Positions 37,761-42,348 of a DNA stretch of 64,000 nt are shown piece after piece (position 1 is the first letter of the stretch; each line of letters starts with the position of its first letter). Source of the DNA: an uncultured SAR86 cluster bacterium (GTDB taxonomy: Bacteria; Pseudomonadota; Gammaproteobacteria; Magnimaribacterales; D2472); the NCBI GenBank assembly GCA_902591925.1, contig CACJCN010000003.1:145825-209824 (forward strand), written 5' to 3'. The translations under genes were made by a program, and so were the position numbers. Under the pieces are notes generated by a model. The model was not told the origin of the DNA, searched no databases, and worked only from the letters and a program-made list of their open reading frames with translations.

Positions 37761-38492
37761 ATGCAAATCTTTATTAAGGATGATATCACCAAAGAAACAT
37801 ATGAAAGTTTTGCAAACTTTTCTAAATTAGAAAAAGTTACAGACAAACCATCTGCTAATAATTATTTTGTATACGACTCAAATGGACTATCTTTTGTAAA
37901 AGATTCTATAAATCCAAAAGAAGTTTTACACATAGATTTTTTGAGTGGGACGCTTGGATGGAGACTTAAAAGAGTCAATCATGAAAGAAACTTAAGAAAA
38001 GCTTTAGGTAAGACTGAAAAACAACTATCAATATTTGATTCAACTGCAGGCTTATTGACAGATACAATGATTTTTCTCTCATTGGGTCACAAAGTTGTTG
38101 CTGTAGAGCAAAGTAAAATTATTTATTCTTTGGTTAAGGATGCGATATTAAGGGCTAAAGATAAGATACCAGAATTAAAAAATTTAATATTTATAAATGA
38201 TAATTCATTGGAAGTTTATAAAAGCATTTCAAAAGAATTTGATGTTATTTATCTGGACCCAATGTATCCATCTTCACACAAAAAAAACAAAAAATTAGGG
38301 AGATTAGAAAATATTAAAAAGATATTAGAGATTGAAAATTTAACAGATAATAGTGAAAACTTAGTTAAGGACTTTTTTAATCTTGAGTACAAAAAAATTA
38401 TCCTAAAAAGGCCTTTAAAGTATAGAAAAAACTATAGTAATATTAACTATCAGGTATTAGGTAAAACAACTAGATTTGATATTTACTTATGA
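37761..38492 (+). CDS. rsmJ: 16S rRNA (guanine1516-N2)-methyltransferase RsmJ
   Basis: 243 aa with FDSTAGLLTD (SAM motif I-like) and YLDPMYP. Confidence 0.78.
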   Translation: MQIFIKDDITKETYESFANFSKLEKVTDKPSANNYFVYDSNGLSFVKDSINPKEVLHIDFLSGTLGWRLKRVNHERNLRKALGKTEKQLSIFDSTAGLLTDTMIFLSLGHKVVAVEQSKIIYSLVKDAILRAKDKIPELKNLIFINDNSLEVYKSISKEFDVIYLDPMYPSSHKKNKKLGRLENIKKILEIENLTDNSENLVKDFFNLEYKKIILKRPLKYRKNYSNINYQVLGKTTRFDIYL

Positions 38493-39589
38493 TAGAAATC
38501 AAAGAAGATTCAATAATTTTAACTGTTAAAAAAAATAAATTTGATCTACCTTTTTTGTGGCTTAGAGATAATTGCCAGTGTGATGAATGCAGAATTACTG
38601 AGACGCAGGAAAAGCAATTTTTATTGCATTCAGTTCCTGTAGATATAGTGCCAAATCATGTAGAAGAAATTGATAATAACATTAAGATCATTTGGCCTGA
38701 TGGTCATGAATCATTTATTCCGATAGATCTTATCAAAAACTCATATTTACCGCGCTATCCAGATCAATGCGAATGGCCAGAGGAATTTCAGCCAGAAAAG
38801 TATAGTTGGAAAGAATTTTTAGATAGCAATGAAATAGCAATAGAAGCTCTTAAAACGTTTGTAAGATTTGGTGTAATTATTCTTAAAGATGCGCCAAAGG
38901 AATCAAATTCTTTAGAATTTCTTGCTAAAAGGCTTGGACCAATTAATGAAGTTCTTTTTGAAAGAATTCATAATGTTTCTGTAACAGGTCACGTATACAA
39001 TGTCGCCCATACACCAAAGGGACTGCCGCCACATAATGACTTTGCAAGTTATAAATCACAACCAAGCGTTCAGGTCTTGCACATGTTAGAAAATGAGTGT
39101 GAGGGAGGGGAGTCTATAATTGTTGATGGTTGGCAAGTGGCAAAAGATTTAAAAGATGAGATGCCTGAACATTTCTCAATACTTCAAAATTTTAAAGTAC
39201 CATTCAGAGAATTTGATCAAGAAAATGAAACGTATGCTGAAGCTCCTCTAATAAAATGTGCAACAGATGGAACAATTGAAAGTTTTAGATATTCAAATCA
39301 ATTAATGCAAATGATAGATCCAAGAAAAGAGGGTATAAGAGAATTTTATAAGGCATATCATGAGATTTCATTGAGGGTTCATAACAAAAAATATCGTTCA
39401 ACTTTCAGACTTAATGGGGGAGAGGCCCTTGTCGTTGCAAGTTTGAGGGTACTTCATGCTCGTGAACCTTTTATTCCCAATGGAAGAAGGCATTTACAAG
39501 ATGCATATTTTACCTATGACAATGCGGCTAATAATATTGTTTTGTTATCTAATCAATTAAGTGAAGCTATCAGACGCAGACATATCTAG
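38489..39589 (+). CDS. Fe(II)/2-oxoglutarate dioxygenase, gamma-butyrobetaine hydroxylase-like (TauD family with GBBH-type N-domain)
   Basis: N-terminal LWLRDNCQCDEC zinc-type motif, HND facial-triad candidate (PPHNDFASY) and a distal His (RVLHAREPF). Confidence 0.75.
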   Translation: MIEIKEDSIILTVKKNKFDLPFLWLRDNCQCDECRITETQEKQFLLHSVPVDIVPNHVEEIDNNIKIIWPDGHESFIPIDLIKNSYLPRYPDQCEWPEEFQPEKYSWKEFLDSNEIAIEALKTFVRFGVIILKDAPKESNSLEFLAKRLGPINEVLFERIHNVSVTGHVYNVAHTPKGLPPHNDFASYKSQPSVQVLHMLENECEGGESIIVDGWQVAKDLKDEMPEHFSILQNFKVPFREFDQENETYAEAPLIKCATDGTIESFRYSNQLMQMIDPRKEGIREFYKAYHEISLRVHNKKYRSTFRLNGGEALVVASLRVLHAREPFIPNGRRHLQDAYFTYDNAANNIVLLSNQLSEAIRRRHI

Positions 39590-39812
39590 AATTATTGAGA
39601 TGGCATGGGAGGATAGGACTCCATTTGATGCAATTAAATCTCAATTTGGCCTTACTCAAGACAAAGTAGTTAAAGTAATGAGAGAAAACCTTAAAAAAAA
39701 TAGTTTCAACCTTTGGAGAAAAAGAGTAAGAGGTAGGAAAACAAAGCATTCTGAGTTAAGAACTTTCAGAGTTGGTAGACATCATTCCTATGACCAAAAT
39801 AAACATAAATAA
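39561..39812 (+). CDS. DUF2805 / TIGR03643-family small protein
   Basis: RIIEMAWEDRTPFDAIKSQFGL motif. A GTG start at 39561 overlaps the upstream gene. ATG 39600 is the alternative. Confidence 0.7.
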   Translation: MKLSDADISRIIEMAWEDRTPFDAIKSQFGLTQDKVVKVMRENLKKNSFNLWRKRVRGRKTKHSELRTFRVGRHHSYDQNKHK

Positions 39813-40092
39813 AGATAAGTTAAAGTTTACAAATTTACACAAATCATTTTTTAGTGATTTAAAAGATACTGAGTGTCAAATATCAGATACAAACGTACTA
39901 ATATTTGAATCATCTGGAAGAAATCCAGATCCAGCTGCGGTTGAATTAGTTTTTAAGAACAATCATTATGTTTTGTACTACTGGGATGGCTACTCATTGG
40001 CAGAAAAAAATCAAACAAGTTCATATGATGATGCACTCTACCAATTTAAAAAATATGCAAAGAAATTGGCTAAGAATTTAAGAAAATTCTAA
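39790..40092 (+). CDS. Hypothetical protein
   Basis: 100-aa ORF from ATG 39790, followed by a strong terminator. No recognisable motifs. Confidence 0.45.
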   Translation: MTKININKDKLKFTNLHKSFFSDLKDTECQISDTNVLIFESSGRNPDPAAVELVFKNNHYVLYYWDGYSLAEKNQTSSYDDALYQFKKYAKKLAKNLRKF

Positions 40093-40121
40093 AAAATGCG
40101 ATCAAAGTGATCGCATTTTTG
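40091..40121. terminator. Bidirectional Rho-independent terminator between convergent genes
   Basis: A-run, then hairpin atgcgatca / aag / tgatcgcat, then T-run. Confidence 0.8.
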
Positions 40122-40137
40122 TTGTATAGTTTAAATA

Positions 40138-42036
40138 TTAATAGCCACTTCCACCAGAACTAGAAGTTGAGAAGTGTGATTTTGGTTTGAATAGTTCATC
40201 AGAAGAAGAGGTTTCTGATCCATGATACCCACCTGTATCTGGCATATAAAAGGTTAATCCAGGATACTCATAAAATGTATGTGGATGGTCGTCGTCACCT
40301 TGTGATGACAAATAAACTTTATATGTGAAACCTGATGCTCCTTTAAAAGGTCCTGAAGCAATGGTACCTTTCACTTGCATTGCAGTACTTGAGCTAGTTA
40401 CGTCGATATTAGATTGTGTATATGAAGATACTTTTACAATCTTTCCTTCAGAATACATTCCAGAGTGAAAATCACAATATGGGTATATTGTGTCCGGAGT
40501 ATTTGCACCAACAGTAAGTGTTAATGTGCTCTCATCCCATCCTTCACTTGAACCAATGATACCAGAATCTGAGGCGGTAGCATTTTGGACAGTCGACATT
40601 TTAAACGGATGACTTGCAGTCACAGAGTTAGAAGCTTCAAACTTTATAACATCACCTTCTCTAACATAAATTACCATTTCAGTAGAAGATGTATTTACAC
40701 TATCGACTAGGTAATTGCTGCTACCATTGTTTGATAGTGAGTAGGTTGTTTCATTTAAGTAAGATTCATTATCTGTGATTGCTCCGCCATCCCAAGAAGT
40801 ATTTTCATTAATCCAATCAATCGTATTAAAAGTTAATTTATCTATTTCTTCTGTTGTTGAGGTTCCATCAATAACTGCTCTCATAAGGGTTGCTAATTCA
40901 GTTACTCCAGCCTTTGCAAAATGAGATAGTGAATTTGAGGAGTCCGCATATATTTTTTGCAAATAAGATGATATTCCTGCAGATAAATCAACAAGTTGTT
41001 GACTAGATGGAGAAAACCCACTATCTAGGTTTGTTAAAAAATCTTTTATGAAAGTTGTATCACCCAATGATGTTTCAGATCCAGTTCGATTAAAAACACT
41101 TTCGGTAAATTTATAGGTATTACTATTTGAAGTTGGAGTTGGATTCAAAGCCTCTAATATATCGTAAATAATAGCAGCCTGTGTATTAACAACAGCAGCT
41201 TTATTATATGAAGCCGAATCTAAGTTTGAAAAAGGATTATCAAATCTAATCATGAAATTAGCGTCTATACCGAGTTTAGATTTTAAAGTTTCGTAATCTG
41301 TGCTGTTATATTCATTAAGCATTGTGCTTAGTGGGGTAACAACAAAATTTTGATCAGTAACAGGTTGACTCAAAGCAAGACTTTCAGAATCCATAAATTG
41401 AAGATTTGTAACAGGGTCAAATCCACCTTCACTTCGGATTACTCCAGAAGTGCCTGAGTCAACTGTTATTGAAAATGTTCCATCTTGTGCAGAAGTTGCA
41501 GTAAATTGTGCTCCATCACATGTCCCAGAGTTTACTTCAATACATACTGATGCTCCTTGAATGGGCCCCATTACTAAGATGGTGCCATCATATCCTGTAG
41601 ACGTAACATCATCAGATGTATCATTAGTTATTGTAATTCTAAAGTCTTCAGAATCTGTAAGTGATCCATCGGACACAGTTACTGATATTTCATAGATTCG
41701 GTCGGTGTTTGCATCATTAGGTGCTTCATAATCTGGAGCTGAATTAAAAGTAACGACACCACTTGAAGTAATACTCAAAAGTGAGGCATCTGTGCCAGAT
41801 AATGAGAAAGTTATTGTGTCACCATCAGGGTCAGATGCAGTAACTGTAAAAGCAGTAGTTTGATTTTCTTGTACAGAAATATCAAATGATGAATTTGTAA
41901 TATTGGGGGCTCCATTCATGTTACCTGAGCTGCCTCCGTAGCCGTCGCCGCCGCCGCCGCCACCGCCTCCACCGCCACCGCAAGAGGCTATTACAAAAAG
42001 ACTAAATAAAAAAATTACCCTGTTTAAAGATATCAT
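40138..42036 (-). CDS. Surface/periplasmic lipoprotein with poly-Gly tether, cadherin-like domain and cupredoxin-like (type-1 copper) domain
   Basis: Lipobox VIASC at Cys19, then G11. Residues ~44-137 look like a cadherin/Big repeat (VQENQTTAFTVTASDPDGDTITFSL...YEISVTVSDG). Residues ~452-536 carry His476...Cys521-x2-His524-x2-Met527. Strong SD (aggag). Confidence 0.85.
   Translation of the reverse strand: MISLNRVIFLFSLFVIASCGGGGGGGGGGGDGYGGSSGNMNGAPNITNSSFDISVQENQTTAFTVTASDPDGDTITFSLSGTDASLLSITSSGVVTFNSAPDYEAPNDANTDRIYEISVTVSDGSLTDSEDFRITITNDTSDDVTSTGYDGTILVMGPIQGASVCIEVNSGTCDGAQFTATSAQDGTFSITVDSGTSGVIRSEGGFDPVTNLQFMDSESLALSQPVTDQNFVVTPLSTMLNEYNSTDYETLKSKLGIDANFMIRFDNPFSNLDSASYNKAAVVNTQAAIIYDILEALNPTPTSNSNTYKFTESVFNRTGSETSLGDTTFIKDFLTNLDSGFSPSSQQLVDLSAGISSYLQKIYADSSNSLSHFAKAGVTELATLMRAVIDGTSTTEEIDKLTFNTIDWINENTSWDGGAITDNESYLNETTYSLSNNGSSNYLVDSVNTSSTEMVIYVREGDVIKFEASNSVTASHPFKMSTVQNATASDSGIIGSSEGWDESTLTLTVGANTPDTIYPYCDFHSGMYSEGKIVKVSSYTQSNIDVTSSSTAMQVKGTIASGPFKGASGFTYKVYLSSQGDDDHPHTFYEYPGLTFYMPDTGGYHGSETSSSDELFKPKSHFSTSSSGGSGY
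41947..41979 (-). repeat. GGN triplet tract encoding 11 consecutive glycines
   Basis: Plus-strand gccgccgccgccgccaccgcctccaccgccacc, a GC-rich microsatellite-like tract in an otherwise AT-rich context. Confidence 0.9.
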
Positions 42037-42263
42037 ATGTTCTCCTGTTGTTAATTAATCGGGCGTCCATAAAGTGTAAGAAAAGTTTGTGCCCAAACTG
42101 ACCAAATTTATGGCAAAGCGACTTGATGTAGTGTATTAAACAAAAAAAATATAAATAAAGTCAAATTTATATTTTTTGTTGTTTTTTCGGTATTTTTTAT
42201 ATATATATTTTGTAGTTTTACTACTAATTGATATATTTTTGATTTAATTTGTAACTAATAGAT

Positions 42264-42348
42264 TGGTGCCCCATATCTGAGTCGAACAGATACTCCCGAA
42301 GGAACGCGATTTTGAATCGCGCGCGTCTACCAATTCCGCCAATGGGGC
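42264..42348 (-). tRNA. tRNA-Leu (anticodon CAA)
   Basis: The reverse complement GCCCCATTGGCGGAATTGGTAGACGCGCGCGATTCAAAATCGCGTTCCTTCGGGAGTATCTGTTCGACTCAGATATGGGGCACCA folds as a cloverleaf. It has a 7-bp acceptor stem, anticodon loop TTCAAAA, a long variable arm and an encoded CCA. Confidence 0.93.

What the first reader, a model, noticed from the sequence alone, without database searches (positions are those of the whole stretch)
40138..42036. Lipoprotein combining a cadherin-like repeat with an apparent type-1 copper (cupredoxin) site
The 632-aa protein has a lipobox (VIAS-C19) and an 11-Gly tether. A cadherin/Big-like domain follows (VQENQTTAFTVTASDPDGDTITFSL...YEISVTVSDGSLTDSEDFRITITND), then a Cys-containing beta-rich segment and a helical region. 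Near the C-terminus is a segment with the ligand pattern of blue-copper proteins. His476 (TASHPF) lies 45 residues before Cys521-D-F-His524-S-G-Met527 (YPYCDFHSGMYSEGKIVKV). The C-x2-H-x2-M spacing and the trailing GK.V.V strand match amicyanin/pseudoazurin-type sites (recalled: YHCTPHPFMRGKVVV). The His-to-Cys distance is similar to plastocyanin. A His-rich tail (DDDHPHTFYEYP...GGYHG) follows. A tethered cell-surface or periplasmic cupredoxin fused to an adhesion-type domain is not a standard architecture. It could act in extracytoplasmic electron transfer or copper handling. The gene looks more GC-rich than its neighbours by eye and is bracketed by a terminator and a tRNA.
Basis: partly seen in the sequence, partly recalled or inferred. 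Interest (0 to 1): 0.6.

Follow-up and report, generated by a model that had tools for sequence, protein, structure and literature searches.

The report
Stalked lipoprotein with blue-copper head
A lipid-anchored envelope protein of a small-genome ocean bacterium ends in a divergent blue-copper (cupredoxin) domain with all four copper ligands, followed by an undescribed histidine module; both modules also occur in marine phage tail and baseplate proteins, and the function is untested.

Summary
The 632-aa ORF (40138-42036, minus strand) has a strong ribosome-binding site, a lipobox (I-A-S-C19) and an 11-Gly tether. A true cadherin-fold domain follows, then a beta-rich domain and a helical domain.

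Residues ~429-536 are a cupredoxin. An AlphaFold model of residues 420-632 is confident (pLDDT 90, pTM 0.86). Its best solved-structure matches are rusticyanin and plastocyanin. H476 lies between strands 4 and 5, C521 ends strand 7, and H524 and M527 sit in the strand 7-8 loop, as in blue-copper proteins. All four residues are invariant in orthologues down to 25-30% identity.

There is no direct Pfam cupredoxin hit. The link to Copper-bind (PF00127) runs through intermediate relatives.

The "His-rich tail" is a discrete ~70-aa module (H584-x-H586, FYM598P, H605). It also occurs alone in large phage structural proteins and matches nothing in Pfam or PDB.

The extra GC reflects amino-acid content, not foreign origin (GC3 equals the genome mean). 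Gene neighbourhood is not conserved across lineages.

Function is untested. I favour a tethered copper redox head. A metal-stabilised binding module is a serious rival, because some phage copies have lost the ligands.

This scan has already found orthologues on other DNA, with the same reading.

The parts
40138..42036 (-). CDS of the 632-aa lipoprotein
   Evidence: more than 1,700 homologues, all unnamed or 'hypothetical'
42042..42046 (-). Shine-Dalgarno AGGAG, 6 nt upstream of the ATG
   Evidence: read from the sequence
41980..42036 (-). Signal peptide with lipobox I-A-S-C19 (residues 1-19)
   Evidence: C19 is invariant in the 23 aligned homologues of A1 (>=67% identical), and the signal peptide and lipobox Cys recur in divergent orthologues
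41947..41979 (-). 11-Gly tether (residues 20-30)
   Evidence: a Gly run is present in all full-length orthologues
41617..41916 (-). Cadherin-fold / Big_9 domain (residues ~41-140); optional in the family
   Evidence: replaced by Ser/Thr-rich linkers in P0123, P0124 and P0127
41335..41595 (-). Beta-rich domain with C165/C173 (residues ~148-234); weak CarboxypepD_reg/aBig_2 likeness
   Evidence: poorly modelled
40834..41334 (-). Helical domain (residues ~235-401), no known family
   Evidence: secondary structure; no Pfam or PDB match
40429..40752 (-). Divergent cupredoxin domain (residues ~429-536)
40609..40611 (-). H476 codon, the N-terminal copper ligand (HPF motif)
40456..40476 (-). Ligand loop C521-D-F-H524-S-G-M527
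40174..40380 (-). C-terminal HxH...FYMP...H module (residues ~553-621; H584, H586, M598, H605)
40092..40120 (.). Bidirectional intrinsic terminator hairpin between the convergent genes
42264..42348 (-). tRNA-Leu(CAA) upstream on the same strand

Best explanation
The gene encodes a Sec/SPase-II lipoprotein. Residue +2 is Gly, so by the E. coli Lol rule it would go to the outer membrane; this is an inference. The protein is a stalk carrying a two-domain head. The stalk is a Gly tether, a Ca-cadherin-type Ig domain, a beta domain and a helical domain. The first head domain is a divergent cupredoxin with a complete type-1 site (H476, C521, H524, M527) and the short amicyanin-type C-x2-H-x2-M loop. 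The second is a small beta module presenting H584 and H586 on one strand. M598 and H605 face each other across a hairpin. I take the head to bind copper and to act as a tethered one-electron redox centre in the cell envelope, with the His module as a second metal or partner site. My confidence differs by level: about 0.9 for fold and ligand set (shown), about 0.7 for copper binding (inferred), about 0.4 for a redox role (inferred). Partner and substrate are unknown.
For: The four ligands are invariant in 23 close homologues. They are also invariant in 11 divergent family members down to 31% identity and in the 20 orthologue C-terminal pieces (L007-L028) that cover the ligand region, down to 25% identity. 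In 126 domain instances from the library search, H, C and H are 126/126 and M is 125/126. Intermediates P0145, P0146 and P0138 pass the Pfam Copper-bind cut-off, and a cluster mate of P0145 is named plastocyanin. A family profile hits pseudoazurin and plastocyanins first in the PDB, with the N-terminal His, Cys and second His in register and the Met offset by the shorter loop. hhalign against the genome's own pseudoazurin aligns the N-terminal His, Cys and second His, with the Met offset because the pseudoazurin loop is two residues longer (E 0.004). The AlphaFold model has pLDDT 90 and pTM 0.86, with the ligands on the canonical elements. Foldseek gives rusticyanin at probability 0.96 and plastocyanin at TM 0.57. 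In the second module H584, H586, M598 and H605 are invariant, including in distant cupredoxin-free proteins. It is a single-copy gene kept in 1.2-Mb streamlined genomes. 22 of the 23 sampled genomes that have the head also have a pseudoazurin gene; this is weak, because related genomes are not independent.
Against: There is no direct Pfam, NCBIfam or PDB sequence hit to a cupredoxin; SoxE scores below threshold. No Foldseek PDB match reaches E < 1e-3. Ligand distances were not measured. No redox partner sits in a conserved neighbourhood. The genome already has two canonical pseudoazurins for periplasmic electron transfer. The closest relatives of both modules are phage tail-fibre and baseplate proteins, where a redox role is implausible. 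Some phage copies have lost the Cu ligands or the His residues, so the folds can work without metal. M598 is kept even where the His residues are lost, so it may be a core residue rather than a ligand.
Confidence: 0.45

Rival explanations
1. The head is a metal-stabilised binding or adhesion head. The cupredoxin-like and HxH modules would be sturdy extracellular beta-sandwich modules, as on phage fibres. The metal (Cu or Zn) would only stabilise the fold. The lipoprotein would bind a surface, particle, polymer or cell, in keeping with its cadherin domain.
For: 45 BFVD matches at E < 1e-3 are cyanophage tail-fibre, baseplate-connector and virion proteins, with rmsd ~3 A over ~120 columns. P0146 is annotated as a T4-like proximal tail fibre. 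The HxH module sits in 700-3300-aa phage structural proteins, including a gp6-like baseplate wedge. Ligand-free derivatives exist. The protein also has a cadherin-fold domain and Ser/Thr-rich stalks.
Against: A Cys-His-His-Met set is specialised for copper and is invariant across the whole bacterial family. Purely structural sites usually drift, as they do in some phage copies. The cadherin domain is dispensable within the family, whereas the head is not.
Confidence: 0.3
2. The protein captures or handles copper. It would scavenge, buffer or hand over copper in the envelope of a bacterium living at picomolar free copper, using the type-1 site and the His3(Met) module as binding stations.
For: Two invariant sets of soft and borderline ligands lie in one compact head. 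The hosts are open-ocean bacteria with small genomes. Presence is nested within lineages that have copper proteins.
Against: No copper transporter, TonB receptor or chaperone is linked in any lineage. Type-1 sites are buried and release copper slowly, which is unlike CopC, CusF or PCuAC. Phage homologues have no need for copper traffic.
Confidence: 0.15
3. The motif is a coincidence on a non-metal beta-sandwich, and the protein binds no metal.
For: No direct family HMM hit. Foldseek PDB E-values are only ~0.02.
Against: Only these residues, plus a few Gly, Pro and aromatic residues, are invariant over more than 100 divergent domains, and they sit exactly where cupredoxin ligands sit.
Confidence: 0.03

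Closest known systems
Amicyanin, pseudoazurin and plastocyanin (small type-1 blue copper proteins, Pfam PF00127)
   Same: An eight-strand Greek-key sandwich. His sits after strand 4, Cys ends strand 7, and His and Met lie in the strand 7-8 loop. The loop spacing C-x2-H-x2-M is that of amicyanin.
   Different: It does not reach the PF00127 cut-off. The first His is followed by Pro-Phe (HPF), where I recall Asn in classical cupredoxins (not checked here). A 24-residue insert lies between strands 5 and 6. It is the C-terminal part of a 632-aa lipoprotein, not a ~100-aa soluble carrier. There is no mau or nir gene context.
Laz (lipid-modified azurin of Neisseria; PMC6277709), and the membrane-anchored sulfocyanin, halocyanin and auracyanin
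   Same: A lipobox or anchor, a low-complexity linker and a cupredoxin held at a membrane.
   Different: Laz is an azurin (C-x4-H-x4-M) on a short Ala/Pro linker. Here there is a ~400-residue multidomain stalk, a different cupredoxin subfamily and an extra His module.
Cupredoxin-like modules of cyanophage tail-fibre, baseplate and virion proteins (e.g. P-SSM2 Q58M57, S-TIM5 H6WFV3, uvMED BAR32972.1)
   Same: These are the nearest relatives by sequence (E down to 1e-18) and by structure (rmsd ~3 A). They share the HPF...YYC..HSGM signature.
   Different: They are often tandem and embedded in 500-3000-aa virion proteins. Some copies have lost the ligands. No paper in the searchable library describes them.
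Phytocyanins of plants (GPI-anchored stellacyanin/uclacyanin; ENODLs without ligands)
   Same: An analogy only: a lipid-anchored, stalked extracellular blue-copper domain with ligand-free derivatives and an unclear function.
   Different: Eukaryotic, with a Gln axial ligand in stellacyanin. No homology closer than the superfamily was shown here. This comparison rests on recalled knowledge.
Two-centre copper enzymes (Cu nitrite reductase, multicopper oxidases, PHM CuM HxH+Met site)
   Same: A type-1 site lies next to a His-rich site; HxH on a strand plus a Met recalls CuM.
   Different: There is no H-C-H bridge (the sequence is Y520-C521-D522), no trimer or three-domain architecture, and the His module is a mobile unit that also occurs without a cupredoxin.

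Membership tests
Cupredoxin superfamily / type-1 blue copper proteins | Greek-key beta-sandwich fold | tested here: met
   The AlphaFold model has pLDDT 90. Foldseek gives rusticyanin at probability 0.96 (E 0.02) and plastocyanin 2pcf at TM 0.57.
Cupredoxin superfamily / type-1 blue copper proteins | His...Cys-xn-His-xm-Met ligand set on the canonical elements, conserved in relatives | tested here: met
   H476 lies between strands 4 and 5, C521 ends strand 7, and H524 and M527 are in the strand 7-8 loop. All are invariant.
Cupredoxin superfamily / type-1 blue copper proteins | Ligand atoms converge on one metal position | not testable with these tools
   Model coordinates are not released.
Cupredoxin superfamily / type-1 blue copper proteins | Binds Cu with ~600 nm absorbance and narrow-A-parallel EPR | not testable with these tools
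   Needs an experiment.
Pfam PF00127 Copper-bind | Score at or above the gathering cut-off (21.2 bits) | tested here: not met
   No hit at E <= 10. The link is only transitive, through P0145 (49.7 bits), P0146 and P0138. The profile against PDB pseudoazurin gives E 0.026.
Bacterial lipoprotein (SPase II substrate) | n-region, h-region and lipobox [LVI][ASTVI][GAS]C | tested here: met
   The sequence MISLNR-VIFLFSLFV-IAS-C19 was read directly. C19 is invariant in A1, and the signal peptide and Cys are kept in divergent orthologues.
Cadherin repeat | Cadherin EC fold | tested here: met
   Foldseek matches 5czr, 2wbx and others at E 3e-7, rmsd 2.0 A, 24-26% identity.
Cadherin repeat | Pfam Cadherin cut-off and Ca-binding motifs | tested here: inconclusive
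   PF00028 scores 19.6, below its cut-off of 28.8, while Big_9 scores 26.5, above 23.6. E57, D102 and N138 are invariant and E104 and D139 nearly so in the close homologues, but Ca ligation was not tested.
Azurin / Laz | Azurin-type loop C-x4-H-x4-M and azurin sequence family | tested here: not met
   The loop is C-x2-H-x2-M, and no azurin appears among the PDB hits.
Multicopper oxidase / Cu nitrite reductase | His flanking the type-1 Cys (H-C-H or H next to C), linking to a second Cu centre | tested here: not met
   Y520-C521-D522. Only cupredoxin-domain-level Foldseek matches to small laccases were found.

The most novel reading that the evidence does not exclude
The cupredoxin and the HxH...FYMP...H module together form a previously undescribed two-metal extracellular head: a type-1 Cu feeding, or fed by, a His3(Met) site. 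It would carry out redox chemistry at the cell surface, for example on iron, copper complexes or reactive oxygen. A corollary is that many marine phage tail and baseplate proteins carry real blue-copper sites.
Probability: 0.15. Interest if true: 0.8.

Novelty: new variant of a known kind. Interest (0 to 1): 0.55.

Why it matters
The protein belongs to a large unnamed family: 1,736 homologues were scored, all 'hypothetical'. It occurs in abundant marine Gammaproteobacteria: SAR86-like MAGs, Halieaceae, Luminiphilus, Colwellia and the K189A clade. If the site binds copper, it would be a new architecture for blue-copper proteins. It would also extend the superfamily to a subfamily shared between ocean bacteria and cyanophage virions, which would matter for copper demand in the sea and for phage tail biology. 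The HxH...FYMP...H module has no Pfam model, no solved structure and no literature that I could find. It is a well-defined ~70-residue target for structure determination and metal analysis.

Tried and rejected
- **Direct family searches.** Pfam, NCBIfam and PDB sequence searches of the whole protein found only the Big_9/cadherin domain.
- **First AlphaFold model.** It used a shallow alignment of homologues at least 67% identical and gave pLDDT 52. It was unusable for the C-terminus and served only for the cadherin domain.
- **Horizontal transfer.** Rejected: GC3 is 0.210 against a genome-typical 0.206, and the gene is syntenic in a relative of the same family.
- **Operon partners.** None found. 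Neighbours differ in every lineage: galactokinase, COQ7, a tyrosine phosphatase, IDO, H-NOX and GFA.
- **YHYH domain (PF14240).** It appears in the names of some phage hits, but is not related to the HxH module.
- **TPR hits in the library search.** These are composition artefacts.
- **Slam (PF04575).** Not found in the 93%-complete genome, but the control genomes did not ring either, so nothing follows.
- **Helical domain.** No Pfam or PDB relative.
- **Viral scan with the cupredoxin alignment.** It failed because the alignment has no conserved 7-mer.
- **Literature.** Four searches found no description of the protein or of phage cupredoxin modules.
- **A caveat on my own count.** The 126/126 ligand count comes from hits seeded with a ligand-bearing query, so it overstates conservation outside the bacterial family. 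Ligand-free phage copies exist.
Full report
**The gene**

The ORF at 40138-42036 on the minus strand encodes 632 aa. Its ATG at 42036 has AGGAG 6 nt upstream, and a TTGACT-type promoter-like stretch lies further up, downstream of tRNA-Leu(CAA) at 42264-42348 on the same strand. Eighteen nucleotides past the stop, a hairpin at 40092-40120 folds at -14.8 kcal/mol (z -8.6, 0 of 200 shuffles as stable). It is flanked by A and T runs and serves the two convergent genes; the pattern scanner missed it.

Gene GC is 0.369 against 0.325 for the window. GC3 is 0.210 against a mean of 0.206 (sd 0.026) for the window's 48 long ORFs. The protein is 15% Ser, 11% Thr and 9.5% Gly. The GC excess is therefore compositional and not a sign of transfer. 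A relative of the same family has the gene in the same place, with 13 syntenic neighbours.

The genome is 1.2 Mb and 93% complete, and the gene is single-copy. One public gene call for this exact protein starts at M40 (593 aa). The conserved signal peptide and the ribosome-binding site argue for the longer form.

**Architecture**

- **Signal peptide and tether.** Residues 1-19 are a signal peptide ending in the lipobox I-A-S-C19, followed by 11 Gly.
- **Cadherin-type domain.** Residues ~41-140 reach the Pfam Big_9 cut-off.
- **Beta-rich domain.** Residues ~148-234 contain C165 and C173 and give weak CarboxypepD_reg/aBig_2 matches.
- **Helical domain.** Residues ~235-401 are helical and have no detectable relatives.
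- **What is core.** In divergent family members (31-47% identity) the cadherin domain is replaced by Ser/Thr-rich linkers. Nearly all invariant columns fall in residues 430-621. The C-terminal head is therefore the core of the family.

**The cupredoxin domain**

The protein itself hits no cupredoxin model. Sulfocyanin SoxE scores 16.9 bits, below its cut-off of 21.

An exhaustive HMMER search with residues 420-632 against 1.84 billion representative proteins gave 169 hits. Beyond the orthologues, these are single or tandem ~110-residue domains sharing HPF...(Y/F)YC..HSGM. Several of them pass the Pfam Copper-bind cut-off: P0145 at 49.7 bits, and also P0146 and P0138. P0139 passes the At5g54830-like domain cut-off. 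A cluster mate of P0145 is named 'plastocyanin', and P0146 is 'putative T4-like proximal tail fiber' of a Mediterranean phage.

In 126 aligned domain instances, H476, C521 and H524 are 126/126 and M527 is 125/126. A profile of the family finds pseudoazurin 3tu6 first in the PDB (E 0.026), then plastocyanins, aligning the N-terminal His, Cys and second His, with the Met offset by the shorter loop. hhalign against one of this genome's own pseudoazurins aligns the N-terminal His, Cys and second His, with the Met offset by its longer loop (E 0.004, probability only 9%).

I built an alignment of 53 rows: orthologue C-termini from 17 genome loci, 24 viral HxH modules and 11 short cupredoxin homologues. 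With it, AlphaFold gave pLDDT 90.0 and pTM 0.86 for residues 420-632.

The model has eight strands between 429 and 535. H476 lies between strands 4 and 5, C521 is the last residue of strand 7, and H524 and M527 lie in the strand 7-8 loop. This is the canonical layout. Foldseek against the PDB puts rusticyanin first (probability 0.96, E 0.02) and plastocyanin at TM 0.57. Small-laccase domains follow. No match reaches E < 1e-3, and two-Ig Fab chains fill the rest of the list.

Coordinates are not released, so I could not measure ligand distances.

**The second module**

Residues ~553-621 form a small beta domain. In an alignment that includes distant, cupredoxin-free proteins, the invariant residues are G557, G562, G569, Y572, H584, H586, F596, M598 and H605.

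H584 and H586 lie on one strand, at positions i and i+2, so they face the same side. M598 and H605 sit opposite each other in a tight hairpin. This is compatible with a His3(Met) site, but that is inference only.

The module has no Pfam hit, no PDB sequence hit even at E 10, and is not the YHYH domain.

A scan of IMG/VR found it in 45 viral contigs. There it sits inside 200-3300-aa proteins that match baseplate-wedge (gp6-like, PHROG 219) and virion-structural families. Seven of 30 viral ORFs examined also carry a cupredoxin-like domain; in six of them the HxH module comes first, about 270 or more residues upstream, rather than after the cupredoxin as here.

**Phage relatives and loss of ligands**

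Foldseek against BFVD gave 45 matches at E < 1e-3. Nearly all those that carry a name are cyanophage tail-fibre, baseplate-connector or virion proteins, at ~3 A rmsd over ~120 columns and 20-30% identity.

Some phage copies have lost the metal residues. The cupredoxin-like domains of L033, L037, L040 and L044 read ...YYNPN...G instead of YYC..HSGM, while L045 keeps the full set. Conversely, the HxH modules of L045, L048 and L067 have lost all the His residues (L052 keeps only part of the motif), yet all four keep FYMP.

Both folds can therefore function without metal in virions, and M598 may be a core residue rather than a ligand. My 126/126 figure is also inflated by query bias. Within the bacterial lipoprotein family, however, every orthologue examined keeps both residue sets.

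**Distribution and context**

Orthologues occur in SAR86-like Gammaproteobacteria MAGs, Halieaceae, Luminiphilus, Colwellia, an Alteromonadaceae MAG and the K189A clade.

In a sample of 61 genomes of the window's own family, the head domain is found in 23. Among genomes that are at least 90% complete it is found in 12 of 26. It occurs in 6 of 10 genera, and in 6 of the 8 other sampled genomes of the window's own genus. The higher count came from cadherin-domain matches.

No neighbouring gene is shared between lineages.

The genome has two canonical pseudoazurin genes elsewhere. 22 of the 23 head-bearing genomes also have a PF00127 gene, against 16 of the 38 without the head. This nesting rests on few independent events and is only a hint.

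**Reading**

What is shown:
- a lipoprotein signal;
- a cadherin-fold domain;
- a cupredoxin fold with a complete, correctly placed and conserved type-1 ligand set;
- a second conserved His module;
- kinship of both modules with phage virion proteins.

What is inferred:
- copper binding (about 0.7);
- outer-membrane anchoring (from Gly at +2, the E. coli rule);
- a redox role (about 0.4).

The main rival is a metal-stabilised binding head (about 0.3). It is favoured by the phage relatives and by the ligand-free copies. Against it stands the strict retention of a copper-specialised ligand set in the bacterial family. Copper capture is third (about 0.15). A two-centre oxidoreductase is the most novel reading still open (about 0.15).

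**Earlier notes of this scan**

After my own analysis I looked up earlier notes. Orthologues in four other genomes had been flagged, and three had been followed up, with the same conclusions as mine: a divergent cupredoxin, an undescribed His module and phage relatives. The scan has therefore found this before on other DNA.

New here, as far as those summaries show:
- ligand-free phage derivatives of both modules;
- the query-bias caveat on the conservation count;
- the patchy 23/61 distribution within the family;
- the GC3 argument against horizontal transfer.

**Tool availability**

Noticed in passing
G000:C1:188061-188321 and G000:C4:100345-100605 (outside the window; L075, L076): There are two canonical pseudoazurin-type genes (195 and 151 aa, motif YQC.PH.MMAM) in this 1.2-Mb genome. 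One lies next to a DsbA-like gene.
   Followed up: partly
L033:3771-7532, L037, L040, L044 (IMG/VR phage loci): Phage baseplate/structural proteins of ~1250 aa carry an intact HxH...FYMP module at ~residue 470. At ~residue 740-860 they carry a cupredoxin-like domain that has lost Cys, His and Met (YYNPN..G). L045 shows the reverse pattern.
   Followed up: partly
P0195, P0168 (library proteins): The HxH...FYMP module also occurs in Ala/Arg/Pro-rich proteins, one of them with an IPT/TIG domain. They look eukaryote-like, so the module may reach beyond bacteria and phages. The source organisms are unknown.
   Followed up: no
window 40092-40120: A perfect 13-bp hairpin with A and T runs on either side acts as a shared terminator for the convergent genes 39772-40092 (+) and 40138-42036 (-). 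The consensus terminator scan did not report it.
   Followed up: yes
window 41920-42036 / protein P0001: A public gene call of the identical protein starts at M40 (593 aa) and so drops the signal peptide and lipobox. The ribosome-binding site and orthologue conservation support the 632-aa form.
   Followed up: yes
L014:6001-8430 (Colwellia MAG): The tblastn match runs ~500 nt beyond the end of the orthologue's ORF (7911). There may be a second related piece or gene downstream.
   Followed up: no
window 38489-39812: A gamma-butyrobetaine-hydroxylase-like dioxygenase and a small overlapping ORF lie just downstream of the convergent neighbour. The dioxygenase, the small ORF and the neighbour are syntenic in L007, but the dioxygenase and small ORF are not among the conserved neighbours in L009/L010 of the same group.
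   Followed up: no
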